Source: a virus. Taken from it: a DNA stretch of 38,673 bases. Shown here one piece after another: positions 587-38,673 of this stretch. Position numbers and translations under genes: made by a program. Location of the stretch: the UHGV virus genome UHGV-0106931; one strand, given 5' to 3'. The notes below the pieces were generated by a model, which was not told where the DNA came from, ran no database searches, and worked only from the letters and a program-made list of their open reading frames with translations. Position 1 is the first letter of the stretch. Every line of letters starts with the position of its first letter.

Positions 587-589
587 TAG

Positions 590-4193: not shown

Positions 4194-4338
4194 AAGTCCT
4201 CCAAAGAAATCTAAAGTTTGTTGACAGATTCCAAAAGCGATCTTAAAGTTGAGCTAGAAGAGTTCTTTTGGAGCCTTCACTACTAATCACGACAAACAAC
4301 GGCTCGCCACAAGCCATACTGATAAGGAATGTTGCCTT

Positions 4339-4542
4339 ATGACACCTAACATTTCAATTACTCTGAATACACCCCATGTCACGATCGAACGTTATAGCGA
4401 ACTGACAGGCCTTTCTATTGATACGATTAACGACATGTTGGCTGATGGCCGACTACCTCGTCATCGTCTTCGTAAAGACAAAAAACGTGAAAAGGTAATG
4501 ATTAACCTGGCTGCTCTGACTGTTGATGCTTTGTCTGCTTAA
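4339..4542 (+). CDS. apl: Apl/Cox-like excisionase/early regulator (67 aa)
   Basis: Small HTH protein (LTGLSIDTINDMLADGRLP) as first gene of the rightward early operon, opposite cI. Confidence 0.6.
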   Translation: MTPNISITLNTPHVTIERYSELTGLSIDTINDMLADGRLPRHRLRKDKKREKVMINLAALTVDALSA

Positions 4543-4605
4543 TAGATGCCTATTTCGCAAGAAGACACTGAGTTCGATTTTGCGATAAGTTCGGAGTTGA
4601 GAACC

Positions 4606-9873: not shown

Positions 9874-10062
9874 ATGCAGGACTATTTTTTGGAGTCTTTG
9901 AAGCTCCAGCGCATTGATTTTTTTCTTAAGCTTGTAGCGGCTAGTGAGTGTAGTGATGAAGAGAAGGGGCTAGCTCTGCAGTGGGTTTCTGAATTGACTG
10001 ATGAGTTGATGGCGAAAATTCGAAGCCATGAATACAGTAGGTCGATGGATGTAATCAGTTGA
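9874..10062 (+). CDS. Small SOS-controlled protein (62 aa); candidate Tum-like antirepressor
   Basis: AGGAGG RBS 5 nt before ATG; downstream of the LexA box; position matches 186 tum (between A and cos). The longer ORF from 9772 would contain the operator. Confidence 0.4.
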   Translation: MQDYFLESLKLQRIDFFLKLVAASECSDEEKGLALQWVSELTDELMAKIRSHEYSRSMDVIS

Positions 10063-10095
10063 GCTTGTTTCGTTAGGACTTGATAAGGGAACCGA

Positions 10096-10116
10096 AAAGG
10101 GGCATTAAGCCCCTTT
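10096..10116. terminator. Bidirectional hairpin between the convergent small ORF and the lipoprotein gene
   Basis: AAAGGGGC-attaa-GCCCCTTT stem-loop. Confidence 0.45.
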
Positions 10117-10129
10117 CTCATAAGTTGAT

Positions 10130-10429
10130 TTAGTTGTTACCCAAAGAGCCGGCCATGGCTGCATATTTAATTTCTTCGCTGGGTATTTCAGGATGTAGTT
10201 GAATTTGCCTGATGATATAGCCAGGAACTTCTTCACTCCACAGTTTCGCCGCGTCCTTACAGACCTTATACGCGAAGTCTCTATTCTCAAAGGCATAGGA
10301 TTTTCCGTATGCATATTGCTGACAGGCATGAACATAAGCTCCGAAGTCGCCGTCTTTATCTGGCAAAGCACATCCAGCTAAGGCTATGATGATTGCTACT
10401 AACGTAAAGGAGAAAGTTATACGTTTCAT
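10130..10429 (-). CDS. Small secreted lipoprotein (99 aa)
   Basis: Signal peptide with lipobox (LVAIIIALAGC); AT-rich moron region. Confidence 0.6.
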   Translation of the reverse strand: MKRITFSFTLVAIIIALAGCALPDKDGDFGAYVHACQQYAYGKSYAFENRDFAYKVCKDAAKLWSEEVPGYIIRQIQLHPEIPSEEIKYAAMAGSLGNN

Positions 10430-10537
10430 GGTCTCTTTCTAAGCGTTTAGCATTATTTAACTAAGGGGTATCTGCCGTGATTTGGTAGTCCCTGATATAT
10501 ATTCTCAGGGACTATGCTGAAGTAGCTTTAATTTTGA

Positions 10538-11344
10538 TTATTTAGAAAGGTACTTATCTCTAAGTTGATTCAGTCTGTCAGCATCGCGTTCTGAAAACTC
10601 GGCGTCACCATAGATCGATTTCCCATCTGCGTCTTCAAGGCCAATGACTGTGACGGTAAATATAGCATCAGCCGGAACTTTAAGTTTTCCCCAATCAGAG
10701 TATCTATTAGGGGCTAATTTCCAGTTGGCTTTCTCACCTGGTTCCAGACCTCCAGAAATTTTATAGTTGAAGACGTCAGAGAACCAAGGGACGCTTCTTC
10801 CTGGGCTGGCAATAACTCCTTTGAAGAATACTCTGGCAACCGCTTTGTCTGTTCCGTTTTCAACGCTAATATCCAGAATTGGCTGATCATTGCCGTAATC
10901 CTCTTTCTGGAAATAAAAACGGGAACGTTCGACCTTGAAGGCTTTCATTTTTTCCGCAGCCTGTGTTGCAGAGGTTTGTTTGGCTTCCAGTTCTTTTATT
11001 TCTTGCAGAGCCTGTTCTTTCTCTCTCTTCTCACGCTCAAGGCGAATAGTTTGTGCGTAATTTATAACCTCATCACCAGTTTTACCTTCCAACGCTGACT
11101 TAATTTTTGTTTCGTAGACGTCCCCAGAAGACGTTCCAGCCTGCATTAGCTCTCTCATGTTGATTTGGCTAAAGGCAACGACTTTAACTGCATCATCAAA
11201 CTGAGCTTTTTTATCTGCAGGTAAGGACTCTCTTACTTTTTGAATGGACTCTTTCATCGACTGATCGCTTGATGCATCGATCTTCGGTTTGTCACAAGCA
11301 GTAAGCAGCAGAGCAAAAGCAATTACGCCAGTTAATTTCTTCAT
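10538..11344 (-). CDS. Lipoprotein (268 aa) with central charged coiled-coil-like segment
   Basis: MKKLTGVIAFALLLTAC lipobox signal peptide; start taken at the internal ATG (11344) that begins the signal peptide. Confidence 0.6.
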   Translation of the reverse strand: MKKLTGVIAFALLLTACDKPKIDASSDQSMKESIQKVRESLPADKKAQFDDAVKVVAFSQINMRELMQAGTSSGDVYETKIKSALEGKTGDEVINYAQTIRLEREKREKEQALQEIKELEAKQTSATQAAEKMKAFKVERSRFYFQKEDYGNDQPILDISVENGTDKAVARVFFKGVIASPGRSVPWFSDVFNYKISGGLEPGEKANWKLAPNRYSDWGKLKVPADAIFTVTVIGLEDADGKSIYGDAEFSERDADRLNQLRDKYLSK

Positions 11345-11540
11345 ATCCCTATCCCAATCGTAAAAAAACAAGGCTAATCCTAACAGGATTAGCGGGCATG
11401 ACAAACTCATAGCCATATAGGTGTGCTGTATAAATTAGCGGGATGAGAAAGCCTGCACAGACCCTCATGTTGAAACTTGATTTTAGCTCAAAAGAGCTGA
11501 CACTAAATAACTGCGCGGAATAATGCTCCACTTTCGGTTA

Positions 11541-11561
11541 GCCCTTGGCCCTTGGCCCTTG
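11541..11561. repeat. Tandem repeat (GCCCTTG)x3
   Basis: Three exact tandem heptamers in the non-coding region left of cos. Confidence 0.6.
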
Positions 11562-11872
11562 CTGGGTAAGGCGTGGGGCCGTTTTCTTCGCCTGATCCTG
11601 CTGTATCTGGCCTACAGTAGGTTGTCCTTACGCGACATGCCACATGTCAGTAAACGGCAGGTGTAGCAGTATTAGACGCAGCTATTTAGTGTGTATTAAG
11701 CTGGCTCATATTTATGACTGGTTTCAAGGTTTGACCGATTTTCATGTCATGCATGTCTATGCTGCATGAGTTCGCATGATCGTTTGAGGATCGGTTTGGC
11801 TAAGACATGCCAGAACTGGCGGGCTTTTGCTCATGTCATGCAGGTGCATGAAAACTACTACATAAAGCGGGC

Positions 11873-11891
11873 AGGCGTGGCGGGGATACGA
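11873..11891. other. Probable cos site (cohesive-end region)
   Basis: GGCGTGGCGGGGATACGAG followed by CGCGCGCT resembles the P2/186 cohesive-end sequence as recalled (GGCGAGGCGGGGAAAGCAC TGCGCGCT); exact cut positions not determinable here. Confidence 0.5.
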
Positions 11892-11980
11892 GCGCGCGCT
11901 CACCACAATTAGCAAGCTTGCTTATAGGGTTGTTCAGTAATAAATTAACATCCTAATTTCTATACTTTTAAGGTTAGTTC

Positions 11981-12676
11981 ATGGCTTGCAGTAGGGGAAA
12001 AGCTTCTCCAAACGCTAATACAGTTAGACGGCTTTTTGCCAGCTCAGGTGGCTTTTGCCAAAATCCACAATGCTTGCAACCTTTGTTTGTTGATGCTGGC
12101 GACAAAAATATAACAATTGGAGAACTTGCTCACATTTTTAGTGCCATTGATAATGGACCTAGAACCAATGCTGATCTAACTGATGAGCAGAGAGGTCATT
12201 TTGACAACATTATTCTTCTATGTGCTAATTGCCATACGACAATTGATAAGGCAGAGGAACATTTTACTGATGAAATTATCCGTTCTTGGAAAAACGGCCA
12301 TATTGATAAAATAAATGCAACCTTTGGTGTTAAAACATATGACAATCGAGAATCTGTTAGACAGGAGTTAGAAAAATACTTCAGAGAAAACAATACCATT
12401 TTTGTAACATATGGACCAACCCAAGAGAACAGCGTTGACCCTGAAAATCCAAATGCAGAAGTATGGTTAAGAAAAGTACAATCTCATATCTTACCCAACA
12501 ATAGAAAAGTACAGCGACTGGTTGAACAAAACTATCACCTCATGAGTGAAGATGAGAAGAATGTTTTTTCAAAGCTTTGTGTTCATATAGATGACTTTGA
12601 ATCAAAACATTTGGGCTTAACCGATGCTAATGGTAGTAGGTTTCCAGAAGCTGCATCTGAACTATTTATAGGATGA
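11981..12676 (+). CDS. HNH-motif nuclease-like protein (231 aa), cassette gene 1
   Basis: C-x2-C (CQNPQC), conserved His (ELAHIF), Asn, and CANCH arranged as in HNH endonucleases; AT-rich; stop overlaps next start. Confidence 0.65.
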   Translation: MACSRGKASPNANTVRRLFASSGGFCQNPQCLQPLFVDAGDKNITIGELAHIFSAIDNGPRTNADLTDEQRGHFDNIILLCANCHTTIDKAEEHFTDEIIRSWKNGHIDKINATFGVKTYDNRESVRQELEKYFRENNTIFVTYGPTQENSVDPENPNAEVWLRKVQSHILPNNRKVQRLVEQNYHLMSEDEKNVFSKLCVHIDDFESKHLGLTDANGSRFPEAASELFIG

Positions 12677-13332
12677 ATCCAATGAGCATAAATGCGAGTG
12701 AAGGCTATATTTCATGGATGGCAGGAAAATTACAAGAAAATAAATGTGTCGAAAATATAGAGGTGATAGGTGATGGTACTTTAGTGATTAATACTACACA
12801 GGGTGACACCTATTTGATCGGGGCAATCAATACTGGCCGGATAACATGTCCTGAGATAAATGAATACCTAGACAATAAAAAAATTGATTTTCTATCAGTC
12901 AAGGGAGGTGTTGAATTTATCTCTGGTGATGCAATGAGATTACTAGAACAAAAGAAAATAGGAGTGGGTTCATTTGGGCATATTGCATCTTCTTTAAGAG
13001 CTAATAATCCGCTTGAGCATCTTGATAAAGAGCATTTGTTTATAAATAGAGTGTTCAATCAACATTCACATGTAAGCTCTGTAGAGCGAGAAACCAACAA
13101 AAAATATAGACTTAAAAGACGTGGCTTGGCGGACTTAGTTATTATCGCTGCGAATGATTATGATATGACAGCGGGTTCTGTAAGAGATGCGATAGGGTTG
13201 CATGGCAATTGTGATGTTGTTTTTTCCTCCAATCCTAATGGACGATTGACGACTCAGGCAAAAGAGGCTGCTCAAAGTATCGGGGTGGAGCTTTACAAGT
13301 TGGGTGATTTATTACGAAGAATTTCACGGTAG
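12673..13332 (+). CDS. Hypothetical protein (219 aa), cassette gene 2
   Basis: ATGA-coupled to gene 1; no domain confidently recognised; a weak Rx6H (RANNPLEH) is noted only as a possibility. Confidence 0.6.
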   Translation: MNPMSINASEGYISWMAGKLQENKCVENIEVIGDGTLVINTTQGDTYLIGAINTGRITCPEINEYLDNKKIDFLSVKGGVEFISGDAMRLLEQKKIGVGSFGHIASSLRANNPLEHLDKEHLFINRVFNQHSHVSSVERETNKKYRLKRRGLADLVIIAANDYDMTAGSVRDAIGLHGNCDVVFSSNPNGRLTTQAKEAAQSIGVELYKLGDLLRRISR

Positions 13333-13649
13333 TGAATTTTAAACATACGATTGAATCGATCTGTGATGTTATTATCCATCATAGTTTATATATGGTGGAT
13401 GTATATGTATTTGGGTCAGCATTAAAGAGTTTTTGCGATGCAAATGATATTGATATGCTTGTGATAGGTGATTGTGTCGATGGTTTATTATTGAAGCGAA
13501 AGCTGCGGGAGCTTGATTTATTTGTTCCTGTTCATATTATTACAATGACGCATTCAGAAGAGTATGAACTGGGATTTATTAAGTCTGTTGGCACTTCTCT
13601 GCTTGTTGTTGATAAAAGCGTTAAGATCAATTTTGTATGTGGTATATAA
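13332..13649 (+). CDS. Minimal nucleotidyltransferase-like protein (about 105 aa), cassette gene 3
   Basis: FGS-x9-DID (YVFGSALKSFCDANDIDMLV) fits the Pol-beta-type NTase motif; GTG start overlapping the upstream stop (TAGTG), alternative ATG at 13392. Confidence 0.5.
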   Translation: MNFKHTIESICDVIIHHSLYMVDVYVFGSALKSFCDANDIDMLVIGDCVDGLLLKRKLRELDLFVPVHIITMTHSEEYELGFIKSVGTSLLVVDKSVKINFVCGI

Positions 13650-13660
13650 CGGGTGGCAAT

Positions 13661-13698
13661 AAGCCTCTTCTTTGGATGGGTTTCTAAAGAAGAGGCTT
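13661..13698. terminator. Bidirectional hairpin between the cassette and portal gene Q
   Basis: 13 bp perfect stem AAGCCTCTTCTTT / AAAGAAGAGGCTT with 12 nt loop. Confidence 0.5.
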
Positions 13699-13701
13699 TA
13701 A

Positions 13702-14730
13702 TTACAAGGAGTAATCTTGGAATTTTATTACGTCATCATGTAGCCAATTGTTCACCTCTCTAATTCGTTGTTGAAGAGGCTTTAATTCATTACGTACAAA
13801 AACCGTGGATGCCTTCTCCACATCCCCAAACCCGCCAACATTATTCGGCATGATACCCATCATTTGTGGAGGCACGCGGTGTGCCGCCATCATGTCATCC
13901 CGGCTCACGTTCTTGATGTTCAGAAATTCATCCTTTGCCGCGACTTCTGACAACGGGATAATCTGAAGACCATCCTTTTTGCCGTTAGGTGAGTACATAA
14001 ACAGGTTGCGGAAGTTGCCTGGACCTTTGGCGCTTTTCATTGCGTTGCGGAGGTTGTTCACATCCTCCTGGTTCTGCGCAGCATCGGTCATGTACATGAT
14101 GAAGCCAGCATGACTGCCGTTAATGTAATACTTTCGGCGGAACAGCGTGGCGGACTCGTTGAGCAGGGCTGACGGAATGGCAGAAAGATAACCGGGCAGG
14201 CCGTAGATCTCCTGGTTGATGTCCGGTTCCATCAGATGAAAGATGCTGCCTTTCGTGAACTGATACGGCTGGGTTGTCATACCGTATTGCACAAACCAGT
14301 AGGTATCCAGGTCTAATCCGCGTCGGGTGTATTTTGCCAGCGCAGGTTCAAGGGCGATCACTTCACCGAAGCGGTTCGTGCGTTTCTCCAGATAGGCGTT
14401 GCCAAATACCAGATAGTCCTGCACAAAACGCGAAAAAGCCTGCTGGCTGAGCAGAGGATGAGGGATATAGGTACTGGTCAGAATGTTGCACTTTACTGCA
14501 ATCGGGGAACTGTGATGCACGGCGGCGCGGAAGGTGCGAGCCAGACCGTCGAAACTCACTGGCGGCTCATACCAGCGATCTGTCTGTACGCATTGCACAT
14601 AGTCCAGCAGTTCGCGGCGGTCAAGTACAGGAACGGGATCACCGAAGCTGAATGCTTCGGCTGAAGTCTGGCTTTTATGCTGGATCTGATTCGTCGCCGC
14701 AGTGCGGTTTTTCTTACTCTTTCCCATCAA
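13702..14730 (-). CDS. Q: Portal protein gpQ
   Basis: 342 aa in P2 Q position, overlapping the terminase gene; sequence consistent with P2 Q as recalled. Confidence 0.88.
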   Translation of the reverse strand: MMGKSKKNRTAATNQIQHKSQTSAEAFSFGDPVPVLDRRELLDYVQCVQTDRWYEPPVSFDGLARTFRAAVHHSSPIAVKCNILTSTYIPHPLLSQQAFSRFVQDYLVFGNAYLEKRTNRFGEVIALEPALAKYTRRGLDLDTYWFVQYGMTTQPYQFTKGSIFHLMEPDINQEIYGLPGYLSAIPSALLNESATLFRRKYYINGSHAGFIMYMTDAAQNQEDVNNLRNAMKSAKGPGNFRNLFMYSPNGKKDGLQIIPLSEVAAKDEFLNIKNVSRDDMMAAHRVPPQMMGIMPNNVGGFGDVEKASTVFVRNELKPLQQRIREVNNWLHDDVIKFQDYSL

Positions 14731-23446: not shown

Positions 23447-24341
23447 CCTTTCGCAGTTGCCTGCACCGCAGATTGTGGATGTGCCGGACTTTGAGACGCT
23501 GCTTGCCGAACGCAAGGCAGAATTTGTGGCGCTTCATCCGAAAGATGAGCAGGAAGCAGTGATCCGCACGCTGGAACTGGAATCTGAACCCGCCACTAAA
23601 TTGTTGCAGGAGAACGCTTACCGTGAGTTGCTTCTGCGCCAGCGCATTAACGAAGCCGCGCAGGCGGTGATGGTGGCTTACGCGATGGGCGGCGATCTTG
23701 ACCAGCTCGCTGCCAACTACAACGTGACACGCCTGACGGTGACGCCTGCTGATAATGATGCTGTGCCGCCCGTTGCAGCTGTGATGGAAAGCGATGAAGC
23801 GTTGCGCCTGCGTGTGCCTGCAGCCTTTGAAGGGCTTTCTGTTGCGGGGCCAACTGCAGCTTATGAATTTCATGCCCGAAGCGCCGACGGTCGGGTGGCG
23901 GATGCCAGTGCAACCAGCCCGGCACCTGCAGAGGTGGTGCTGACTGTCCTTAGCCGCGAAGGCGATGGAACTGCAGAAAAAGACCTGCTGGACGTGGTGG
24001 AAAAAGCTCTGAACAGTGAGAACGTCCGCCCGGTGGCTGACCGTCTTACGGTTCGCAGCGCAGAAATCATCCCGTATCGCGTGGAAGCCACCATTTTTCT
24101 CTATCCGGGACCGGAAGCAGAGCCGGTAATGGCAGCGGCAAAAGCCAGTCTGCAGAAGTACATTGCCAGCCAGACGAGGCTTGGTCGGGATATTCGCCGT
24201 AGCGCCATCTTTGCTGCTCTGCATGTTGAGGGTGTTCAACGTGTGGAACTGGCTTCTCCGCTGGCGGATGTGGTCCTGAACAAAACACAGGCGGCATCAT
24301 GTACGCAGTGGAGCGTAACCAACGGAGGAACGGATGAATAG
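23433..24341 (+). CDS. J: Baseplate protein gpJ
   Basis: Start at MAVIDLSQ with AGGAG RBS; P2 J-like. Confidence 0.85.
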   Translation: MAVIDLSQLPAPQIVDVPDFETLLAERKAEFVALHPKDEQEAVIRTLELESEPATKLLQENAYRELLLRQRINEAAQAVMVAYAMGGDLDQLAANYNVTRLTVTPADNDAVPPVAAVMESDEALRLRVPAAFEGLSVAGPTAAYEFHARSADGRVADASATSPAPAEVVLTVLSREGDGTAEKDLLDVVEKALNSENVRPVADRLTVRSAEIIPYRVEATIFLYPGPEAEPVMAAAKASLQKYIASQTRLGRDIRRSAIFAALHVEGVQRVELASPLADVVLNKTQAASCTQWSVTNGGTDE

Positions 24342-24939
24342 TCTGCTGCCACCGGGTTCAACTTCACTGGAGCGCCGACTGGCGCAAACCTGTAGCGGGA
24401 TTTCTGATTTGCAGGTGCCGCTGCGTGACTTGTGGAATCCGGCTACCTGTCCGGTCAGCTTCCTGCCTTATCTCGCCTGGGCGTTCTCTGTGGATCGCTG
24501 GGACGAGGGCTGGACAGAAAGCGTCAAACGCCAGGTAGTGAAGGATGCTTTTTATATTCATCAGCATAAAGGAACCACCAGTGCCGTGCGGCGGGTGGTG
24601 GAACCGTTCGGATTCCTGATCCGCATTATTGAGTGGTGGCAGACCGGAGAAACACCGGGCACGTTTCGCCTGGATATCGGCGTGCAGGACCAGGGCATCA
24701 CTGAAGATACCTATCTGGAACTTGAGCGACTGATAAGCGATGCCAAACCATGTAGCCGCCACATGATCGGCATGTCCATCAATCTGCAGACCAGCGGCCC
24801 GCATTGGGTGGGAGCCGCCAGCTATCTTGGCGAAGAAATCACGATCTATCCGTATATCAACGAAACGATTATTTCCGGTGGCACCGCGCATGAAGGCGGG
24901 GCGGTCCATGTTATTGACACAATGAGAGTGAATCCATGA
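24334..24939 (+). CDS. I: Baseplate/tail protein gpI
   Basis: P2 I position, overlaps J and H. Confidence 0.8.
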   Translation: MNSLLPPGSTSLERRLAQTCSGISDLQVPLRDLWNPATCPVSFLPYLAWAFSVDRWDEGWTESVKRQVVKDAFYIHQHKGTTSAVRRVVEPFGFLIRIIEWWQTGETPGTFRLDIGVQDQGITEDTYLELERLISDAKPCSRHMIGMSINLQTSGPHWVGAASYLGEEITIYPYINETIISGGTAHEGGAVHVIDTMRVNP

Positions 24940-26441
24940 GCACAAAATTTTATACCCTGCTGACGGATATTGGCGCGGCGAAACTTGCCAGCGCCGCCGC
25001 GCTCGGTGTGCCGCTAAAAATTACCCATATGGCGGTGGGCGATGGCGGTGGAGTATTGCCAACGCCGGACGCAAAGCAGACGGCACTGGTAAATGAGAAA
25101 CGCCGGGCTGCGCTGAATATGCTTTATATCGACCCGCAGAACAGCAGCCAGATTATTGCCGAACAGGTGATCCCTGAAAACGAGGGCGGTTGGTGGATAC
25201 GTGAAGTGGGCTTGTTTGATGAGTCCGGGGCATTGATTGCCGTGGGCAACTGCCCGGAAAGCTATAAGCCGCAACTGGCTGAAGGTAGCGGGCGCACTCA
25301 GACCGTGCGCATGGTGCTGATTACCAGCAGCACGGACAATATCACCCTGAAAATCGACCCTGCTGTAGTGCTGGCAACCCGCAAGTATGTGGATGACAAG
25401 GCACTGGAGCTGAAGGTGTACGCGGATGATCAGATGGCAAAACATCTTGCCGCACCGGACCCGCATTCACAGTACGCGCCAAAAGCCAGCCCGACATTTA
25501 CCGGAACCCCCAAAGCGCCAACGCCAGCGGCGGGGAATAATACCACGCAGGTTGCGACCACTGCGTTTGTACAGGCGGCACTGACGGCCCTTATTAATGG
25601 TGCGCCAGCCACGCTGGACACGCTGAAAGAAATAGCCGCAGCCATTAACAATGATCCGAATTTCAGTACCACCATTAACAATGCGCTGGCACTTAAAGCA
25701 CCGTTGTCGAGTCCGGCACTCACCGGAACGCCAACAGCCCCCACGGCGGCGCAGTCGGTCAACAATACACAGATTGCCACTACGGCTTTTGTGAAATCGG
25801 CGATTGCAGGAATGGTGGGTTCTGCACCTGCTGCACTGGATACACTGAACGAACTGGCGGCGGCACTGGGGAATGATCCGAACTTTGCCACGACAATGCT
25901 TAATGCGCTGGCAGGTAAACAACCGCTGGACAATACGCTTACCAATTTGAGTGGAAAGGATGTAGCTGGTCTTCTCACATACCTTGGTTTGGGAGAAGGT
26001 GCTCCAGCTATTGGCGTTCCGTTCTTCTGGCCGTCCGCTGCAATGCCAAATACTGTAATCGACAGCTGGTCCGGCATGGTGTTTTTGAAGTTCAACGGCG
26101 CGAAATTCTCTGCCACTGATTACCCTGTTCTGGCAAAAGTGTTTCCTTCGCTGGTATTACCTGAAGCCCGCGGTGATTTCATTCGTATCTGGGATGACGG
26201 GCGAGGTGCAGACGGTGGTCGCGAATTATTAAGCTGGCAGGAAGCTACAAACTTTTCTCAGTTTGCCGGGAATGTAGGCGGAGGTGCGGGGCACGCAATT
26301 AACTTTCATGATGGCATCGCCGGAAATCAGCCAGGATTTTCACGATTTAATTTCACCAGTAACTCTGTGGGTGATGGTGTGAATTTTGTTGCTGTCAGAC
26401 CGCGCAATATTGCATTTAACTTTCTGGTGAGGGCTAAATAA
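24936..26441 (+). CDS. H: Tail fibre protein gpH (constant N-terminus, invertible C-terminal part)
   Basis: 501 aa with repeated fibre motifs (TQVATTAFV / TQIATTAFV); invertase crossover site inside the gene at 25973-25998. Confidence 0.85.
   Translation: MSTKFYTLLTDIGAAKLASAAALGVPLKITHMAVGDGGGVLPTPDAKQTALVNEKRRAALNMLYIDPQNSSQIIAEQVIPENEGGWWIREVGLFDESGALIAVGNCPESYKPQLAEGSGRTQTVRMVLITSSTDNITLKIDPAVVLATRKYVDDKALELKVYADDQMAKHLAAPDPHSQYAPKASPTFTGTPKAPTPAAGNNTTQVATTAFVQAALTALINGAPATLDTLKEIAAAINNDPNFSTTINNALALKAPLSSPALTGTPTAPTAAQSVNNTQIATTAFVKSAIAGMVGSAPAALDTLNELAAALGNDPNFATTMLNALAGKQPLDNTLTNLSGKDVAGLLTYLGLGEGAPAIGVPFFWPSAAMPNTVIDSWSGMVFLKFNGAKFSATDYPVLAKVFPSLVLPEARGDFIRIWDDGRGADGGRELLSWQEATNFSQFAGNVGGGAGHAINFHDGIAGNQPGFSRFNFTSNSVGDGVNFVAVRPRNIAFNFLVRAK
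25973..25998. repeat. Left crossover site (gix/hix-like) of invertible tail-fibre segment
   Basis: TTCTCACATACCTTGGTTTGGGAGAA matches the reverse complement of 27832-27857 at 22 of 26 positions. Confidence 0.55.
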
Positions 26442-27034
26442 TGAAACCTGTTTTTGATAAAAATGGGCTGGCTACAGTGCCGGGCGATATGCGTTGTTTT
26501 TATTATGATGCTGAAACATCTGAGTATACGGGCTGGTCTGATGAATATATTAATACTGGCGTAAGTATGCCCGCCTGTTCCACTGGTATTGACCCTGGCG
26601 AAAACATTCCGGGAAGAGTGGCAGTATTTACAGGTAAGGGATGGAGCCATGAAGAAGACCATCGCAATGAGACTGTTTACTCAATCGAAAATGGTGCTGC
26701 TGTTACAGTGGATTATATCGGTGCCATCAAAAACGGTTATGTCACGCTTTCACCGTTAACGCCATATGATAAATGGGATGGTGAGAAATGGGTGACAGAT
26801 ACTGAGGCACAACACGGTGCCGCAGTAGAAGCGGCAGAAGCACAGCGCCAGTATCTGATTGATGCTGCAATGGCTTCCATCAGTCTGATTCAGTTGAAAT
26901 TACAGGCCGGACGGAAGTTGACGCCGGCAGAAACAACCCGACTTAACGCCGTGCTGGATTACATTGACGCGGTGACGGCAACAGATACCAGCACAGCGCC
27001 GGACGTCATCTGGCCTGGACTGCCGGAGGCGTAG
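26441..27034 (+). CDS. G: Tail fibre assembly protein (Tfa, gpG-like), current orientation
   Basis: Follows H; Tfa-like size and composition. Confidence 0.75.
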   Translation: MKPVFDKNGLATVPGDMRCFYYDAETSEYTGWSDEYINTGVSMPACSTGIDPGENIPGRVAVFTGKGWSHEEDHRNETVYSIENGAAVTVDYIGAIKNGYVTLSPLTPYDKWDGEKWVTDTEAQHGAAVEAAEAQRQYLIDAAMASISLIQLKLQAGRKLTPAETTRLNAVLDYIDAVTATDTSTAPDVIWPGLPEA

Positions 27035-27449
27035 GCCATTCAATATCGGGTGCTGTTGAAGTATCAACACGCATCAGCAGCACACGGTATTTCTTCCATT
27101 GGGTGAGAGTTGAAGTTTCTTCATCAGTTGCGATACCAGCATCAACAGCATCCTGACGCCAGGATATTTCACTGTCAGCTTTTGCACGAAATGTGGCTTT
27201 CATGTTTTCTGCATCTGATATTTTCTGTTCTGGTGAAAGCGGCGGCTCATCAACCCATGCAAGGGTCCCTGAAACCATTCCCAGCATTTTTCCTGTTGGC
27301 TTATTTCCCCCATTAAATCTGACAGCATCCTCATCGCTGATTTCAATACCATCCTGCGGCCATGTCCCCTCCTTGATATAACTTTCATATAGCGCTGCGT
27401 TGTAGATTGCATTTTCGGACGGGCTGTAAACACTTTTAACTTTATTCAT
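27006..27449 (-). CDS. Alternative tail fibre assembly protein (Tfa'), opposite orientation
   Basis: C-terminus (TSTAPDIEWPTPP) mirrors plus-strand Tfa (TSTAPDVIWPGLP); convergent arrangement typical of invertible fibre cassettes. Confidence 0.7.
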   Translation of the reverse strand: MNKVKSVYSPSENAIYNAALYESYIKEGTWPQDGIEISDEDAVRFNGGNKPTGKMLGMVSGTLAWVDEPPLSPEQKISDAENMKATFRAKADSEISWRQDAVDAGIATDEETSTLTQWKKYRVLLMRVDTSTAPDIEWPTPPAVQAR

Positions 27450-27453
27450 TCTG

Positions 27454-27857
27454 TTATCTCCCTTTCGCTATATAGCAAAGATTAAACCCACCGGCGCCTG
27501 ACATACGGGCTGTAAAACCCGTTCTTGAAGTACCAGTTGAGTTAACTCCATAAGCAGGCATGGTTGTTGGAGAAAGCAGAGACTCCTGGATATCTGCCAT
27601 TGTCAGTGTAATTGATTCGACCCGCGCGGGGAAAGGTAGCGGGAAAACAACATTCGTCCCTGTCTGTCCAACGGGGAAACCGAAAATACCCCATTGTGTA
27701 ATTACCCCATCCGGCCCCTTACTCCATCCAGATTTACTATTCGGCCAGTTTGCTGCTCCAGAATACCCCGTTGTAAAACTACTCATATCTGGTACTTGCC
27801 CGGTATCCGTTCCGACGTTCCTCGTTGCCGCTTCTCCCAAACCAACGTTTATGAAAA
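27454..27857 (-). CDS. Alternative tail-fibre C-terminal segment (no own start; fused to H after inversion)
   Basis: Open frame runs into the right crossover site; residues VGLGEAAT parallel LGLGEGAP in H; the N-terminal extension in the ORF track is likely not translated. Confidence 0.5.
27832..27857. repeat. Right crossover site (gix/hix-like), inverted relative to 25973-25998
   Basis: See left site. Confidence 0.55.
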
Positions 27858-27912
27858 TGCAGAGGTAACAGCTAACTGGCATCATCTCCGGTTTTTATTC
27901 AGGGGGATGCTC

Positions 27913-28479
27913 ATGCTTATTGGCTATGTACGCGTGTCAACAAATGACCAGAACACCGATTTGCAACGTAATGCACTGAACTGCGCGGGATGTGAGCGGA
28001 TTTTTGAGGACAAAATCAGTGGCACTAAGTCCGACAGACCGGGGCTTAAAAAACTGCTCAGGACACTATCGGCAGGTGACACACTGGTTGTCTGGAAGCT
28101 GGACAGGTTGGGGCGCAGTATGCGGCATCTTGTTACGCTGATAGAGGAGTTGCGCCAGCGTGGTGTGAATTTCCGAAGCCTGACTGACAGTATTGATACA
28201 AGTACCCCAATGGGCCGTTTCTTTTTTCATGTCATGGGTGCCCTGGCTGAAATGGAACGCGAACTGATAGTTGAACGTACCAGGGCGGGGCTGGCTGCAG
28301 CTCGTGCTAAAGGCAGAGTAGGTGGACGCCGTCCTAAGTTGACCACCGAACAGTGGGCACAGATTGGACGTTTACTCGAGTCTGGAGAATCAAGACAGCG
28401 TATTGCACTGATTTTTGATGTAGGCGTTTCTACCATTTATAAAAAATTTCCGGCAAATAAGAGCAATGAATCCCCCTGA
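27913..28479 (+). CDS. Serine recombinase DNA invertase (Gin/Hin/Pin/Cin family)
   Basis: MLIGYVRVSTNDQNTDLQ N-terminus with catalytic Ser, C-terminal HTH; AGGGGG RBS. Confidence 0.9.
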   Translation: MLIGYVRVSTNDQNTDLQRNALNCAGCERIFEDKISGTKSDRPGLKKLLRTLSAGDTLVVWKLDRLGRSMRHLVTLIEELRQRGVNFRSLTDSIDTSTPMGRFFFHVMGALAEMERELIVERTRAGLAAARAKGRVGGRRPKLTTEQWAQIGRLLESGESRQRIALIFDVGVSTIYKKFPANKSNESP

Positions 28480-28527
28480 ATCAGCATTATTTTGATTATC
28501 CCTGCAAGTAGACAAATACCGTCATTT

Positions 28528-28545
28528 TGTGTGAATAACGGTACA
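28528..28545. promoter_or_regulatory. Ogr-type late promoter dyad TGT-N12-ACA upstream of FI
   Basis: TGTGTGAATAACGGTACA about 75 bp upstream of the FI start. Confidence 0.55.
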
Positions 28546-28621
28546 ACTGCGCTTAGCTGTTTGTCAGGCACAATCACTTCAACATAGGGCGAAGCCTAAT
28601 CCAATCAGGAGGTTCGCCACT

Positions 28622-29794
28622 ATGGCTCAGGATTACCACCACGGGGTGCGCGTTGTTGAAGTCAACGAAGGTACCCGATCCATTACCACGGTGAGCACCG
28701 CCATCGTGGGCATGGTCTGCACGGGCGATGATGCCGATGCAAAAATGTTTCCTCTTAATAAACCCGTGCTGATCACTGATGTGCTGACTGCCAGCGGTAA
28801 AGCGGGTGAGTCCGGCACGCTGGCCCGTTCGCTGGATGCCATCTCTGACCAGGCAAAACCCGTGACCGTTGTTGTGCGTGTGCCGCAGGGTGAAACGGAA
28901 GAAGAAACCACGACCAATATCATCGGCGCAGTGACTGCTGAAGGTAAAAAAACAGGCATGAAAGCCCTGTTATCTGCCCAGACACAGCTCGGCGTTAAAC
29001 CGCGCATTCTCGGCGTGCCGGGTCACGATAACAAAGCCGTTGCGACTGAGTTGCTGAGTGTGGCGCAAAGCCTGCGTGGGTTTGCCTACCTGTCAGCGTA
29101 TGGCTGCAAGACGGTACAGGAGGCGATCACTTACCGTGAAAACTTCAGCCAGCGCGAAGGAATGCTGATCTGGCCTGACTTTACTGGCTGGGACACGGTG
29201 CTGAATGCCGAAGCAACGGCATATGCCACCGCCCGTGCGCTTGGTCTGCGTGCCAAAATTGATGAGCAGACCGGGTGGCACAAAAGCCTGTCCAACGTGG
29301 GCGTGAACGGTGTCACCGGAATTTCTGCAGATGTGTTCTGGGATCTGCAGGACCCGGCAACCGATGCAGGTCTGCTGAACCAGAACGACGTCACCACGCT
29401 TGTGCGTAAAGACGGTTTCCGCTTCTGGGGTTCCCGCTGCCTGAGTGATGACCCGCTCTTTGCCTTCGAAAACTACACCCGCACGGCGCAGGTGCTGATG
29501 GACACGATGGCAGAAGCACACATGTGGGCGGTGGATAAACCGCTTAACCCGTCGCTGGCGCGCGACATTATCGAGGGTATCCGCGCCAAAATGCGCAGCC
29601 TGGTCAGTCAGGGCTATCTCATTGGTGGTGATTGCTGGCTGGATGAGTCGGTGAACGACAAAGACACGCTGAAAGCCGGAAAACTCACCATCGACTACGA
29701 CTACACGCCAGTGCCGCCACTTGAAAACCTGATGCTGCGTCAGCGCATCACCGATCAGTACCTGGTGAATTTCGCCAGCCAGGTCAGCGCGTAA
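28622..29794 (+). CDS. FI: Tail sheath protein FI
   Basis: 390 aa, P2 FI-like, gene order. Confidence 0.9.
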
Positions 29795-35549: not shown

Positions 35550-35768
35550 ATGATGATTTGCCCACTGTGTGGAAGTGTCGCCCATACTCGCAGCAGTTTT
35601 CAGGTATCTTCATTGACCAAAGAGCGTTACAACCAGTGCCAGAACATTAACTGCAGTCATACTTTTGTTACCCATGAAACTTTTGTTCGTTCGATTGCAA
35701 CGCCAAAAGAGTCAAATCCGGTTCAGCCGCATCCAATGAAATCAGGACAGGTGGCGCTCTCTCTTTGA
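35550..35768 (+). CDS. ogr: Ogr zinc-finger late-gene transcription activator
   Basis: CPLCGSVAHTRSS...YNQCQNINCSHTF matches the P2 Ogr C2C2 finger as recalled; start at MMICPL with GGGGAGA RBS. Confidence 0.85.
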   Translation: MMICPLCGSVAHTRSSFQVSSLTKERYNQCQNINCSHTFVTHETFVRSIATPKESNPVQPHPMKSGQVALSL

Positions 35769-35832
35769 CGCTGCCGCCATTTTGTCGCCATCGTTAAAAA
35801 ACAGTGCTTCTAACATCATGATTTTAAAAGGC

Positions 35833-35859
35833 ATAAATTTCAGGCAACAAAAAACCCAT
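35833..35859. repeat. attR core, identical to attL 590-616
   Basis: Exact 27 bp direct repeat. Confidence 0.75.
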
Positions 35860-35891
35860 CAACCTTGAACCGAAATGGCGGGGTTGATGGG
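35855..35891 (-). terminator. Probable rho-independent terminator of ybjL, overlapping attR
   Basis: Stem CCCATCAACC / GGTTGATGGG followed on the minus strand by a U-run (plus-strand A6 at 35849-35854). Confidence 0.45.
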
Positions 35892-36003
35892 CTCCACAAA
35901 ATGGGGACATCAAAGAAAAGCAGTGGCACTAATTAAGACTGATGCCCTGCGGAAAAGTTCTGCGGTTGTGCAAAAAAATTTCATTTTCAGGGCAACTTCA
36001 GTT

Positions 36004-37689
36004 TTATCCTAATCCTGGCCATACCATGACGATGATTGTCCCTGCCAGCGTCAGCAGGACGTTGGCGATTGCGTAGGTGCCCGCATAGCCCAGCGCCGGG
36101 ATGTTACTGCGAGCTGTATCACTGATGATCTCCATTGCCGGCGCGCAGGTGCGTGCGCCCATCATTGCGCCGAACAACAGTGCGCGGTTCATTCGCAATA
36201 CATAAGCACCGAACAAGAAACAGATAACCACGGGCACCAGACTGACAATCAATCCGGCAATCAACATTTGACCGCCAATTGCGCCCAGGCCGTTATTAAT
36301 ACCGCTACCGGCGCTCAGACCAACGCCTGCCATAAACACCATCAAGCCGAACTCCTTCACCATGCTTAATGCACCCTGCGGAATGTAACCGAAGGTCGGG
36401 TGGTTCGCGCGCATAAAGCCCAGCATGATTCCGGCGAATAACAACCCGGCAGCGTTCCCCATGCCGAAACTGAATGTGCTGAACTGGAAGGTGATCATCC
36501 CGATCATCAGCCCAATAACAAAGAAGGCGCAGAATGCCAGCAAGTCAGTGACCTGGCTGTGAATCGAGATAAAGCCGATGCGATCGGCGATGGTTTTTAC
36601 GCGACGGGCATCGCCGCTGACTTGTAAAACGTCACCTTTGTTAAGCACGACGTTGTCATCAATCGGCATCTCAATCTGGCTACGAATGACGCGGTTAAGG
36701 AAGCAACCGTGATCGGTCAACTTCAGTTGTGCCAAGCGTTTGCCAACAGCGTTATGGTTTTTAACGACCACTTCTTCAGTGACGATACGCATGTCGAGAA
36801 GGTCACGATCGAAAACTTCTTTGCCATTACGGAAACTGGGATCGAGTCGGGCGTGGGCGTCAGGATAGCCTACCAACGCTATTTCATCGCCCATTTGTAG
36901 TACGGCATCACCGTCTGGATTTGCCAGAATCCCGTTACGCCGAATACGTTCAATGTAACAGCCAGTTTGTCGATAAATACCCAGTTCACGCAGATTTTTG
37001 CCGTCGGTCCAGGCCACCAGCTCCGGGCCGACGCGGTAGGCCCGGATCACCGGTAAATAAACCTTACGGTTGGCATCAGTGTCCAGGCCACGTTCGCGGG
37101 CGATTTGCTGGGCGCTGGTCTGTAAGTCCTGATGCTGCAATTTCGGCAAGTAACGCGCACCAACAATCAAACTCACCAGACCGATTAAATAGGTTAAGGC
37201 ATACCCGAGGCTCAGATTATCCAGTGCCAGTGAGAGCTGCCTGCTTTCCATGCCGGAATGACGCAGTGTATCGCCAGCACCGACCAGAACCGGTGTTGAC
37301 GTCATAGAGCCTGCTAACATACCGGCCGTCAGGCCAATATCCCAGCCAAACAGCTTACCTAACCCTAAGGCGATCACCAGCGCACTGCCAACCATCACCA
37401 GTGCTAACATTAGGTAATTTTTCCCATCGCGAAAAAAAATGGAAAAAAAGTTCGGTCCGGCTTCGACCCCGACGCAGAAAATAAACAGCATAAAGCCAAG
37501 ATTAAGCGCGTCGGTGTTAATGCTGAAATGTTGTTGGCCTAATAACAGCGATACGACTAAAACGCCAATGGAATTACCCAGTTGGATCGAACCAAGTCGT
37601 AACTTTCCGAGACATAGCCCAAGCGCGAGGACCACAAATAATAACAGAATGTAATTCCCATTTAACAATTCGGCGACGTTTATATTCAC
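36004..37689 (-). CDS. ybjL: Putative transport protein YbjL (AAE-family membrane transporter)
   Basis: 561 aa multi-pass membrane protein matching E. coli YbjL as recalled. Confidence 0.9.
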
Positions 37690-37958
37690 GGAGGCTAACT
37701 TCTTGTTTACTAGTAAGCTGTTGAAAGAAATGGTAATTTACGATAATGTTTTTTACCAGAATTCAGGGCGCAGATTCATTCAGCGCACCTAAACGATAGT
37801 AAAGTAACAATATATTTTACTAGTGTAATCACATTAGGTATCAACGGCTATATGAATTGCGTTGGCCTATATTAGCATGGAATGCGAAGCGGCTTTATCT
37901 TACTGAACGCCACACTGGCGAAAAATGTGTTCGATAGACGCAGTGTCAGGAGGAACGA

Positions 37959-38336
37959 GTGAAACATAAACAACGTTGGGCGGGGGCAATCTGCTGTTTT
38001 GTCCTCTTCATTGTGGTGTGCCTTTTTCTGGCAACGCACATGAAAGGCGCTTTTCGGGCTGCCGGGCATCCTGAAATCGGCTTGCTGTTTTTCATTCTTC
38101 CTGGAGCAGTTGCCAGCTTTTTTTCACAGCGTAGAGAAGTCCTGAAACCTCTGTTTGGCGCAATGCTGGCGGCACCCTGTTCAATGCTTATTATGCGGCT
38201 GTTTTTTTCACCGACGCGCTCATTCTGGCAAGAGCTGGCATGGTTATTAAGTGCGGTGTTCTGGTGTGCGCTGGGGGCACTGTGTTTCTTATTTATCAGT
38301 AGTTTGTTTAAACCACAGCACAGAAAAAATCAGTAA
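37959..38336 (+). CDS. ybjM: Inner membrane protein YbjM
   Basis: 125 aa hydrophobic protein; GTG start with AGGAGG RBS; matches E. coli YbjM as recalled. Confidence 0.85.
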   Translation: MKHKQRWAGAICCFVLFIVVCLFLATHMKGAFRAAGHPEIGLLFFILPGAVASFFSQRREVLKPLFGAMLAAPCSMLIMRLFFSPTRSFWQELAWLLSAVFWCALGALCFLFISSLFKPQHRKNQ

Positions 38337-38365
38337 AGCCCTCAACGTGAGGGCTTGTCAGACGA

Positions 38366-38623
38366 TCAGGCGTCCAGATTCTCTTTCACCCATGCAGCAA
38401 AATCGGTATAGCCGCCGATATGTTGCTGATCGACAAAAATCTGCGGCACGGTTTCTACGGGTTTACCTGCCTTTTGTTGTAGATCTTCTTTAGTGATCCC
38501 TTCCGCACGAATATCAACATACTGATACTGAAAATCATCGCGTTCATTGCTCAATTTCTCAGCCAGATCTTTTGCACGCACACAGTAAGGGCAACCCGGA
38601 CGACCAAAAATAACGGTTTGCAT
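38366..38623 (-). CDS. grxA: Glutaredoxin 1
   Basis: MQTVIFGRPGCPYCVRAKDLAEK... with CPYC active site; start at the internal ATG preceded by AGGAGA. Confidence 0.92.
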   Translation of the reverse strand: MQTVIFGRPGCPYCVRAKDLAEKLSNERDDFQYQYVDIRAEGITKEDLQQKAGKPVETVPQIFVDQQHIGGYTDFAAWVKENLDA

Positions 38624-38673
38624 TATTTCTCTCCTCATAGATTTATGCCTGTAATGATCACGCTAAAATGTAT

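What the first reader, a model, noticed from the sequence alone, without database searches (positions are those of the whole stretch)
25973..28479. Invertible tail-fibre segment with Gin/Hin-type invertase (host-range switch)
Seen in sequence: a serine invertase gene (27913-28479) sits next to a segment bounded by inverted 26 bp sites (25973-25998 and 27832-27857; 22 of 26 match). The segment contains the variable 3' end of H plus tfa on one strand, and an alternative fibre C-terminus plus tfa' on the other. Established: the same architecture as Mu G, P1 C and e14 Pin segments. P2 itself lacks it and carries Z/fun at this position.
Basis: partly seen in the sequence, partly recalled or inferred. 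Interest (0 to 1): 0.4.

Follow-up and report, generated by a model that had tools for sequence, protein, structure and literature searches.

The report
Pin-type invertible tail-fibre switch, P2-like prophage
This is an ordinary, already well-known kind of phage host-range switch: a small DNA invertase flips a 1.86-kb segment so that a P2-like prophage of Escherichia makes its tail fibre with one of two alternative tips.

Summary
Two 26-bp imperfect dyad sites (25972-25997 and 27832-27857, 22/26 complementary, the same asymmetric TT/AA core in inverted orientation) bracket a 1858-bp segment. The segment carries the 3' end of tail-fibre gene H plus tfa on the + strand, and a promoterless alternative 3' end plus tfa' on the - strand. 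An intact 188-aa serine invertase gene (27913-28479) lies 55 bp beyond the right site. It is 85% identical to PinE of e14, 78% to Cin and 74% to Gin, with every catalytic and Fis-contact residue checked conserved. The right site is 26/26 identical to the e14 site beside pinE. Inversion in silico gives an in-frame 479-aa fibre that is 478/479 identical to the annotated fibre of a sibling prophage in E. coli ESBL 15. Two other E. coli strains carry the same prophage with 100% identical flanks and the segment (99.8% identical) inverted exactly at these sites. Flipping of P2-like prophage segments in culture has been published (PMC4272514). Active flipping of this particular copy, Fis dependence and the receptors remain inferred. 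Nothing here is new in kind, so interest is low.

The parts
24936..26441 (+). Tail-fibre gene H as now assembled (501 aa). Residues 1-350 (24936-25985) are the constant part; residues 351-354 (GLGE) are encoded by the inner half-site; residues 355-501 are variable tip Sv.
   Evidence: ORF and translation. PF12571 phage tail-collar fibre N-terminal domain, E 2.5e-65. The tip is 41% identical to e14 StfE and 94% to the side tail fibre tip of lambdoid phage mEp043.
25972..25997 (.). Left crossover site TTCTCACATACC-TT-GGTTTGGGAGAA, inside H and in frame; core dinucleotide at 25984-25985.
   Evidence: Homology with sibling prophages breaks at 25998-26000. The identical site occurs in ESBL 15, phage 500465-1 and S1-CAM-01-A.
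25986..27843 (.). Invertible segment, 1858 bp between the two core dinucleotides.
   Evidence: In-silico inversion. Natural inversion of the homologous segment between MSB1_9D and 1008S13.
26441..27034 (+). tfa, tail-fibre assembly chaperone for tip Sv (197 aa); expressed in the present orientation.
   Evidence: PF02413, E 6.7e-25. 62.5% identical to e14 TfaE.
27006..27449 (-). tfa', chaperone for the alternative tip (147 aa); silent in the present orientation. Its 3' end overlaps tfa by 29 nt, convergently.
   Evidence: PF02413, E 9.8e-33. 145/147 identical to the expressed tfa of ESBL 15.
27454..27843 (-). Sv', a promoterless alternative 3' end of H (GLGE plus 125 variable residues plus stop).
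   Evidence: PF21882 gp53-like_C, E 1.9e-10. In frame after inversion, giving a 479-aa H' that is 478/479 identical to the ESBL 15 fibre.
27832..27857 (.). Right crossover site TTCTCCCAAACC-AA-CGTTTATGAAAA; core dinucleotide at 27844-27845.
   Evidence: 26/26 identical to the e14 site beside pinE. Homology with siblings resumes at 27827-27831.
27913..28479 (+). Serine DNA invertase gene (188 aa), outside the segment and therefore expressed in both orientations.
   Evidence: Pfam Resolvase plus HTH_7. Gin structures 3UJ3/4M6F match at E 2e-93 over residues 1-184. 85.3% identical to PinE, 78.5% to Cin, 73.9% to Gin. Key residues conserved.
27934..27997 (+). Putative Fis-dependent recombinational enhancer in the 5' coding part of the invertase gene. 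It holds two G-N13-C 15-mers: GTGTCAACAAATGAC (27934-27948) and GCGCGGGATGTGAGC (27983-27997).
   Evidence: The same two positions carry G-N13-C 15-mers in pinE and gin; cin keeps only the second (its first ends in A). The first lies 96.5 bp from the crossover centre, against about 100 bp in the hin system (PMC3798978). Inferred: Fis binding was not tested, and coding constraint also explains the conservation.

Best explanation
The region is a functional Din-family (Pin/Cin/Gin/Hin-type) site-specific inversion switch in the tail-fibre operon of a P2/186-like prophage. The prophage is integrated between rcdA and ybjL of an Escherichia chromosome. Proposed mechanism, taken from the known family: invertase dimers bind the two 26-bp sites. 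With host Fis bound to an enhancer in the 5' end of the invertase gene, they form an invertasome on supercoiled DNA. Ser9 cuts both strands at the central TT/AA dinucleotide of each site. One pair of subunits rotates 180 degrees and the ends are rejoined, inverting 25986-27843. Only the cassette joined to the constant part of H (residues 1-350), downstream of the late V-operon promoter, is expressed. In the orientation sequenced here, that is a 501-aa fibre with a StfE/mEp043-Stf-like tip plus a TfaE-like chaperone. After flipping, it is a 479-aa fibre with a gp53-like tip plus its own chaperone. A lysogen population would therefore release virions with two adsorption specificities, a form of bet-hedging on host range. 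Shown here: the sites, reading frames, intact genes, conserved residues, and both orientations among near-identical prophages. Inferred: flipping of this very copy, Fis dependence, and that the two tips bind different receptors.
For: Sites: two 26-bp imperfect dyads with the same asymmetric core in inverted orientation. The right site is 26/26 identical to the e14 site beside pinE. The left differs from the e14 left site at 3 of 26 positions, all in the outer half. Enzyme: full length, 85% identical to PinE and 74-78% to Gin and Cin. Conserved residues are Y5, R7, S9, D33, R42, D64, R65 and R68. Also conserved are the invertase-specific basic helix-B residues K46, K47, R50 and the Fis-contact residues Q150, R153, L154 (criteria from PMC3798978). 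Frame: in-silico inversion gives an uninterrupted 479-aa H' followed 4 nt later by tfa'. Natural counterparts: (1) H' is 478/479 identical to the annotated fibre of the sibling prophage at the same chromosomal locus in E. coli ESBL 15, and the flipped 800-nt junction matches at 99.9%. (2) E. coli MSB1_9D and 1008S13 have 100% identical flanks (2599 and 2320 bp). Their 1928-bp segment is 99.84% identical but inverted, with breakpoints at the homologous sites, and their invertase is 98.9% identical to the window's. (3) Among complete E. coli genomes the Sv' cassette is joined to the invertase side in 16 and to H in 5. (4) A 1860-bp draft contig of Escherichia sp. MOD1-EC7003 has the end of the H constant part on both ends of the segment, the signature of mixed orientations in the reads. 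Published experiments: e14 and two P2-like prophage loci of EPEC E2348/69 flip in culture, shown by paired-end sequencing and PCR (PMC4272514). The EPEC locus at 2.98 Mb has a right site 1 nt different from the window's and an invertase about 80% identical.
Against: Only one orientation exists in the window itself, and no reads are available, so activity of this copy is not shown. The left outer half-site reads CATACC rather than the AAAACC of the e14 and gix sites; however, the siblings that did invert share this deviation. No sigma-70-like promoter was found upstream of the invertase. The two enhancer 15-mers lie in coding sequence, so their conservation may reflect protein constraint. Their centre-to-centre spacing is 49 bp by my count, against the 48 bp I recall for hin. 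The second has a G+C-rich centre, which is unfavourable for Fis. The receptors of both tips are unknown.
Confidence: 0.93

Rival explanations
1. A frozen remnant: the architecture derives from an inversion system, but this copy no longer flips. The cause could be too little invertase, the two private substitutions in the enzyme, or the imperfect left site. On this reading the minus-strand cassette is a silent fossil.
For: No promoter-like site was found upstream of the invertase. The window enzyme differs from its closest relatives at S156 (relatives have A) and K175 (relatives have R). Only one orientation is seen in the window.
Against: K175 is the residue found in Gin and Cin, and position 156 is variable in the family. 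All catalytic and Fis-contact residues are intact. Exactly the same left and right sites occur in ESBL 15, where the cassette is in the other orientation. The silent Sv' and tfa' are intact, 125/126 and 145/147 identical to expressed copies; a long-dead cassette would be expected to decay. Weak promoters are normal for these invertases (established knowledge).
Confidence: 0.05
2. The orientation differences among strains arose by rare homologous recombination or horizontal cassette replacement, not by invertase-catalysed flipping. On this reading the invertase mainly serves another target in trans.
For: The cassettes are mosaic: homology with different relatives breaks at 25998-26000, 26753 and 27827-27831. 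The same tips occur in lambdoid and e14-like elements. Din invertases are known to cross-complement (established knowledge).
Against: MSB1_9D and 1008S13 differ by a clean inversion whose breakpoints fall within the 18-bp overlaps at the sites, with 100% identical flanks. A 15-nt shared core is too short for efficient RecA recombination. Published experiments show rapid flipping of homologous loci within single colonies (PMC4272514).
Confidence: 0.015
3. The inverted repeat is a chance match, and the opposite-strand genes are merely a second, independently expressed fibre module.
For: Window-wide, about 0.2 pairs of 22/26 are expected by chance.
Against: None of 60 shuffles of the local 5.5 kb reached 22/26. 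The right site is 26/26 identical to the e14 site. Both sites coincide with homology breakpoints. Sv' has no N-terminal fibre part of its own and fuses in frame only through the site.
Confidence: 0.005

Closest known systems
P segment and PinE invertase of the defective prophage e14 (E. coli K-12)
   Same: Same layout: fibre constant part, site, Sv-tfa, then tfa'-Sv', site, invertase. The right site is 26/26 identical and the left 23/26. The core dinucleotide is TT. The invertase is 85.3% identical. Tfa is 62.5% identical to TfaE and Sv 41% to StfE. e14 flips to about 50:50 in culture (PMC4272514).
   Different: e14 is a lambdoid remnant with a decayed fibre gene (stfE is a pseudogene). Here the host element is a complete P2/186-like prophage with an intact H. 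The second tip (gp53-like) is unrelated to e14 StfP.
Invertible segments of P2-like prophages in EPEC E2348/69 (Goldberg et al. 2014, PMC4272514)
   Same: P2-type tail gene context with the invertase between the fibre module and the sheath gene. At the 2.98-Mb locus, the site beside the invertase differs by 1 nt and the segment is about 1.9 kb. Flipping was shown by sequencing and PCR.
   Different: The invertases are only about 80-83% identical. The 1.89-Mb locus has three long (215-bp) repeats and four states, whereas the window has two short sites and two states.
Sibling Peduoviridae prophages and phages: E. coli ESBL 15, MSB1_9D, 1008S13, and Escherichia phage 500465-1 (Wadgaonvirus)
   Same: 97-99% nucleotide identity in the flanks and 98-99% identical invertase. 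The left site is identical or 1 nt different, as is the right site. The gene is annotated 'DNA invertase' in phage 500465-1 and 'recombinase family protein' in the RefSeq genomes. ESBL 15 sits in the same rcdA-ybjL locus.
   Different: The cassette pairing differs. The window combines the Sv/tfa 5' module of S1-CAM-01-A with the Sv'/tfa' module of MSB1_9D and ESBL 15. No complete E. coli genome covers more than 83% of 24900-28650 collinearly.
Mu G segment/Gin and P1 C segment/Cin
   Same: Same principle and gene order. The invertase is 74% (Gin) and 78.5% (Cin) identical. Sites are 26-bp dyads. In Mu the invertase gene lies just outside the right site, with the same spacing of about 96 bp from the crossover to the first conserved 15-mer.
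   Different: The gix core is TC and its half-sites differ. The Mu and P1 segments are 3-4 kb, and their variable fibre parts show no detectable similarity to the window's tips; only the Tfa C-terminal domains align. In P1, cin lies on the other side of the segment, upstream of the fibre gene.
Phage P2 itself
   Same: Same tail gene order (V W J I H G ... FI FII E T U D ogr) and a TGT-N12-ACA late-promoter motif upstream of FI.
   Different: P2 has a single H-G pair and carries fun(Z), on the opposite strand, where the window has the second cassette and the invertase.

Membership tests
Din-family (Hin/Gin/Cin/Pin) Fis-dependent DNA invertase system | Small serine recombinase of about 185-195 aa: N-terminal resolvase catalytic domain plus C-terminal helix-turn-helix. 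| tested here: met
   188 aa. PF00239 covers residues 3-135 (E 2.7e-53) and PF02796 covers 138-181 (E 4.7e-15). Aligns end to end with Gin structures 3UJ3/4M6F, E 2e-93.
Din-family (Hin/Gin/Cin/Pin) Fis-dependent DNA invertase system | Catalytic serine nucleophile and active-site Arg/Asp residues. | tested here: met
   Y5, R7, S9, D33, R42, D64, R65 and R68 are identical to Gin, Cin and PinE.
Din-family (Hin/Gin/Cin/Pin) Fis-dependent DNA invertase system | Residues peculiar to Fis/enhancer-dependent invertases: basic helix-B residues (Hin 47, 48, 51) and helix-1 residues of the DNA-binding domain (Hin Q151, R154, L155), as listed in PMC3798978. | tested here: met
   K46, K47, R50 and Q150, R153, L154 in Gin numbering, which is Hin numbering minus 1. 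H106 is wild type, not the Fis-independent Tyr variant.
Din-family (Hin/Gin/Cin/Pin) Fis-dependent DNA invertase system | Two 26-bp imperfect dyad sites (12+2+12) in inverted orientation, with the same non-palindromic central dinucleotide. | tested here: met
   TTCTCACATACC-TT-GGTTTGGGAGAA and, as reverse complement, TTTTCATAAACG-TT-GGTTTGGGAGAA. The right site is identical to the e14 site. No third full site exists in the window.
Din-family (Hin/Gin/Cin/Pin) Fis-dependent DNA invertase system | Recombinational enhancer in cis with two Fis sites, about 100 bp from one crossover site. | tested here: inconclusive
   Two G-N13-C 15-mers lie at 27934-27948 and 27983-27997, at the same gene positions as in pinE and gin; cin keeps only the second. 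The first is 96.5 bp from the crossover centre. They lie in coding sequence, and Fis binding cannot be tested here.
Din-family (Hin/Gin/Cin/Pin) Fis-dependent DNA invertase system | The segment is actually found in both orientations. | tested here: met
   Met for near-identical sibling elements and experimentally for homologous loci (PMC4272514). Not testable for this very DNA molecule without reads.
Invertible tail-fibre (host-range) segment of the Mu G / P1 C / e14 P type | The crossover site lies inside the fibre gene, so a constant N-terminal part is fused in frame to either of two C-terminal parts, each followed by its own assembly chaperone gene. | tested here: met
   H is 501 aa and H' 479 aa; both are open, and each is followed by a PF02413 gene.
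Invertible tail-fibre (host-range) segment of the Mu G / P1 C / e14 P type | The two tips confer different adsorption specificities. | not testable with these tools
   The tips are unrelated in sequence: a StfE-like tip against a gp53-like_C tip. The receptors are unknown.
P2-like prophage (Peduoviridae) | P2-type late gene order, with baseplate V-W-J-I, fibre H, sheath FI, tube FII, E/E', T, U, D and ogr. | tested here: met
   Pfam Tail_P2_I and sheath domains. The window is collinear at 95-98% with the annotated ESBL 15 prophage, which has a P2-family capsid, GpE, late control D, Ogr/Delta, and CI/CII/Fil of the 186 type. The closest phage record is classed in Peduoviridae, genus Wadgaonvirus.

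The most novel reading that the evidence does not exclude
The crossover sites may also serve as junctions for exchanging fibre-tip cassettes between different resident prophages (P2-like, e14-like, lambdoid). That would explain why homology between elements starts and stops exactly at the sites. This prophage has in that way acquired a pairing not seen collinearly in 5,426 complete E. coli genomes. One member of the pair is a gp53-like tip that is at most 48% identical to anything in 50,697 sequenced phage records, so it may recognise an uncharacterised receptor.
Probability: 0.25. Interest if true: 0.3.

Novelty: already known. Interest (0 to 1): 0.1.

Why it matters
It matters little as a discovery. 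The practical point concerns annotation and phenotype prediction. The prophage encodes two fibre tips, but only one is expressed at a time, and which one depends on the orientation captured in an assembly. Host-range predictions from a single assembly are therefore incomplete. Pipelines also mislabel the silent cassette as a standalone 'gp53-like domain-containing protein'. Because the segment flips, it can break or scramble short-read assemblies, as in the 1860-bp MOD1-EC7003 contig.

Tried and rejected
A third crossover site (a shufflon-like multi-inversion, as in one EPEC P2-like prophage): half-site and full-site scans found only the two sites. The extra 2-mismatch half-sites at 854 and 15040 are within chance expectation (5 found against 3.1 expected) and lack a dyad partner. 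A promoter for the invertase: the consensus scan found none on the + strand between 27857 and 27913. A conserved TGGCATnAT...TTTTA block shared with e14 and Mu was seen but not interpreted. NCBIfam has no specific model for the invertase or the fibre parts; only sub-threshold hits to other serine recombinases were returned. The second inverted repeat, 26845-26874 / 27130-27159 (70%), was rejected as a site because it merely reflects the homologous C-terminal domains of tfa and tfa' on opposite strands. Literature: Johnson's review, the e14 paper and the Fels-2 Fin paper are not held. Term searches for gix/cix/hix/pix and for Peduoviridae with invertase returned nothing useful. Statements on the enhancer location in gin, cin and hin and on Fels-2/SopE-phi therefore rest on my own knowledge plus the reference list in PMC3798978. 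hix sites were not fetched, since no Salmonella collection is available. The source genome was not identified: the one exact-match scan of genome contigs returned only a related draft contig.
Full report
OBSERVATION. The region 24000-29500 contains one outstanding inverted repeat, with arms at 25972-25998 and 27831-27857 (23/27 complementary, 1832 nt apart). In the canonical 26-bp register the two sites are as follows:
- 25972-25997: TTCTCACATACC-TT-GGTTTGGGAGAA
- 27832-27857: TTCTCCCAAACC-AA-CGTTTATGAAAA, whose reverse complement is TTTTCATAAACG-TT-GGTTTGGGAGAA

They match at 22/26. The inner half-sites are identical, the outer half-sites differ at four positions, and the non-palindromic core dinucleotide is the same once the sites are read in inverted orientation. 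None of 60 shuffles of the 5.5-kb region reached 22/26. The analytic expectation is 0.004 pairs locally and 0.22 in the whole window.

GENES.
- H, 24936-26441 (+): 501 aa, with a PF12571 N-terminal domain.
- tfa, 26441-27034 (+): PF02413.
- tfa', 27006-27449 (-): PF02413.
- Alternative fibre tip, 27454-27843 (-): PF21882 gp53-like_C. As an ORF it runs 14 codons past the site, to 27885.
- Serine recombinase, 27913-28479 (+): 188 aa, Resolvase plus HTH_7 domains.
- Tail sheath gene FI, from 28622.

The window as a whole is a P2/186-like prophage lying between rcdA and ybjL. It is collinear at 95-98% with an annotated prophage at the same locus in E. coli ESBL 15.

FRAME TEST. I exchanged the segment at the core dinucleotides (25984/85 and 27844/45) in silico. 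This joins H codon 350 to the minus-strand cassette in frame. The result is a 479-aa protein, followed 4 nt later by the ATG of tfa'. In both orientations residues 351-354 (GLGE) are encoded by the inner half-site.

THE ENZYME. The protein aligns over residues 1-184 with the Gin structures 3UJ3 and 4M6F (E 2e-93). It is 85.3% identical to PinE of e14, 78.5% to Cin of P1 and 73.9% to Gin of Mu, all taken from records fetched here.
- The catalytic residues Y5, R7, S9, D33, R42, D64, R65 and R68 are conserved.
- McLean et al. (PMC3798978) identify residues specific to Fis/enhancer-dependent invertases: basic helix-B residues Hin 47, 48 and 51, and Hin Q151, R154 and L155. These correspond to K46, K47, R50, Q150, R153 and L154 here, and all are conserved.
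- H106 is wild type.

THE SITES COMPARED. Scanning Mu, P1 and e14 with a relaxed dyad pattern recovered gixL and gixR, one full cix site (CAATCCTAAACC-TT-GGTTTAAGAGAA, beside cin) and the two e14 sites. The window's right site is 26/26 identical to the e14 site beside pinE. Its left site differs from the e14 left site (CTCTCGAAAACC-TT-GGTTTGGGAGAA) at three outer-half positions. The system is therefore of the pix type. No third site exists in the window.

ENHANCER (INFERRED). Gene positions 22-36 and 71-85 correspond to window 27934-27948 (GTGTCAACAAATGAC) and 27983-27997 (GCGCGGGATGTGAGC). Both are G-N13-C 15-mers, and they sit at the same aligned positions in pinE and gin. In cin only the second is kept; the first ends in A. 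The first is centred 96.5 bp from the crossover centre. [quoted passage not shown] That the gin enhancer lies within the invertase gene is the title claim of Kahmann et al. 1985, cited in PMC3798978. Because the sequence is coding, its conservation is not independent proof, so I score this feature inconclusive.

BOTH ORIENTATIONS IN NATURE.
1. The 800-nt in-silico flipped junction occurs contiguously at 99.9% identity in E. coli ESBL 15 and at 96.8-98.5% in four more complete genomes. The ESBL 15 fibre is 478/479 identical to the predicted H', and its tfa is 145/147 identical to the window's silent tfa'.
2. Homology between the window and six sibling loci breaks at 25998-26000 and resumes at 27827-27831, that is, at the sites. 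In ESBL 15 and 1008S13, window 26753-27857 aligns in reverse orientation directly abutting the H constant part.
3. E. coli MSB1_9D and 1008S13 carry the same prophage. Their flanks of 2599 and 2320 bp are 100% identical. The 1928-bp middle is 99.84% identical but inverted, with 18-bp overlaps at the sites. Their invertase is 98.9% identical to the window's.
4. Among complete E. coli genomes, the Sv' cassette abuts the invertase in 16 and H in 5.
5. A 1860-bp draft contig of Escherichia sp. MOD1-EC7003 consists of such a segment with 63-bp perfect terminal inverted repeats. Each repeat is made of the end of the H constant part plus the outer half-site. That can arise only if reads joined H to both ends of the segment.

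PUBLISHED EXPERIMENTS. Goldberg et al. 2014 (PMC4272514) showed, by paired-end sequencing and PCR, that several loci coexist in both orientations within clonal cultures. These were e14 in K-12, a Mu prophage, and two P2-like prophage loci in EPEC E2348/69. I fetched both EPEC loci. The one at 2.98 Mb has the same layout as the window. Its invertase-proximal site differs by 1 nt from the window's, and its invertase is about 80% identical.

MOSAICISM. The window's segment is a mosaic of modules found in different relatives.
- 25999-26752 (Sv plus the 5' part of tfa) matches S1-CAM-01-A in the same orientation.
- 26753-27857 matches MSB1_9D, ESBL 15 and 1008S13.
- No complete E. coli genome covers more than 83% of 24900-28650 collinearly.
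- The Sv tip is 94% identical to the side tail fibre tip of lambdoid phage mEp043. Nucleotide homology starts exactly at 25973, within a relic site-like sequence in that phage.
- The Sv' tip is at most 48% identical to any of 50,697 phage records, but is common in E. coli prophages, some beside pinE-annotated genes.

This modular exchange at the constant/variable boundary is, to my knowledge, what Sandmeier, Iida and Arber described for Min and Cin in the early 1990s. I could not retrieve those papers.

COMPARISON WITH P2. In NC_001895, fun(Z) lies on the minus strand between the V-operon terminator and the pF promoter, and no invertase is annotated. The window keeps a TGT-N12-ACA dyad (28528-28545) upstream of FI, as expected for an Ogr-activated late promoter.

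VERDICT. Its closest relative is the e14 Pin system rather than Gin or Hin. The mechanism is the standard Din-invertase inversion. Shown here are the sites, frames, intact genes, conserved functional residues and natural occurrence of both orientations in near-identical elements. Inferred are activity of this very copy, Fis dependence and the receptor difference. The system is already known in kind and in this phage lineage: it is annotated 'DNA invertase' in Escherichia phage 500465-1. Novelty: already known. Interest: 0.1.

Noticed in passing
window 28528-28545: TGTGTGAATAACGGTACA, a TGT-N12-ACA dyad about 77 nt upstream of the sheath gene ATG (28622). It fits the Ogr/Delta activator site of the P2 pF late promoter, which is annotated at the equivalent place in P2.
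   Followed up: partly
window 27454-27885 (-); L003 4037-4372, L004 4115-4447, L012 5116-5508: RefSeq annotates the silent alternative fibre 3' cassette as a standalone 'gp53-like domain-containing protein'. The ORF merely runs a few codons past the crossover site and has no fibre N-terminus of its own, so this is an annotation artefact of invertible segments.
   Followed up: partly
L014 (NZ_PTRE01000296.1, Escherichia sp. MOD1-EC7003) 1-1860: A draft contig that is essentially one invertible segment, with 63-bp perfect terminal inverted repeats made of the end of the H constant part plus the outer half-site on both ends. This is an assembly signature of mixed orientations in the sequenced culture. 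Its Sv side is 96.4% identical to window 25935-27200.
   Followed up: partly
L015 (phage mEp043) about 2480-2512, against window 25973 onward: The side tail fibre gene of a lambdoid phage with no invertase annotated in the 5.4 kb fetched around it contains a relic site-like sequence, GCTCGCACAAACCTTGGTTTGGGAGAA. Its 91% nucleotide homology to the window starts exactly there, so the crossover site marks a module boundary shared across unrelated phage types.
   Followed up: partly
window 27858-27912 (alignment A1 columns 27-81): Conserved blocks TGGCATnAT and TTTTA lie between the right crossover site and the invertase start codon in the window, e14 and Mu, although the rest of the spacer has diverged. 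They could be promoter or regulatory elements. The consensus promoter scan found nothing there.
   Followed up: no
window about 25500-25945 (H residues about 190-336): The constant part of H contains two tandem copies of a roughly 74-aa unit (...TGTP.AP...NNTQ.ATTAFV...GAPA.LDTL.E.AAA..NDPNF.TT..NALA), a typical fibre shaft repeat.
   Followed up: no
window 26753: A recurrent mosaic breakpoint lies inside tfa, at the start of the conserved C-terminal Caudo_TAP part. Upstream the window matches S1-CAM-01-A; downstream it matches MSB1_9D, ESBL 15 and others. The chaperone gene is itself a recombinant.
   Followed up: partly
window 1-667 and about 35700-38673: The window ends match rcdA and the ybjL-ybjM-grxA chromosomal genes at about 96-98% identity to E. 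coli ESBL 15. The prophage therefore occupies the same integration locus as its ESBL 15 sibling. The early and immunity region (about 700-4600 and 10000-13800) is largely different.
   Followed up: no
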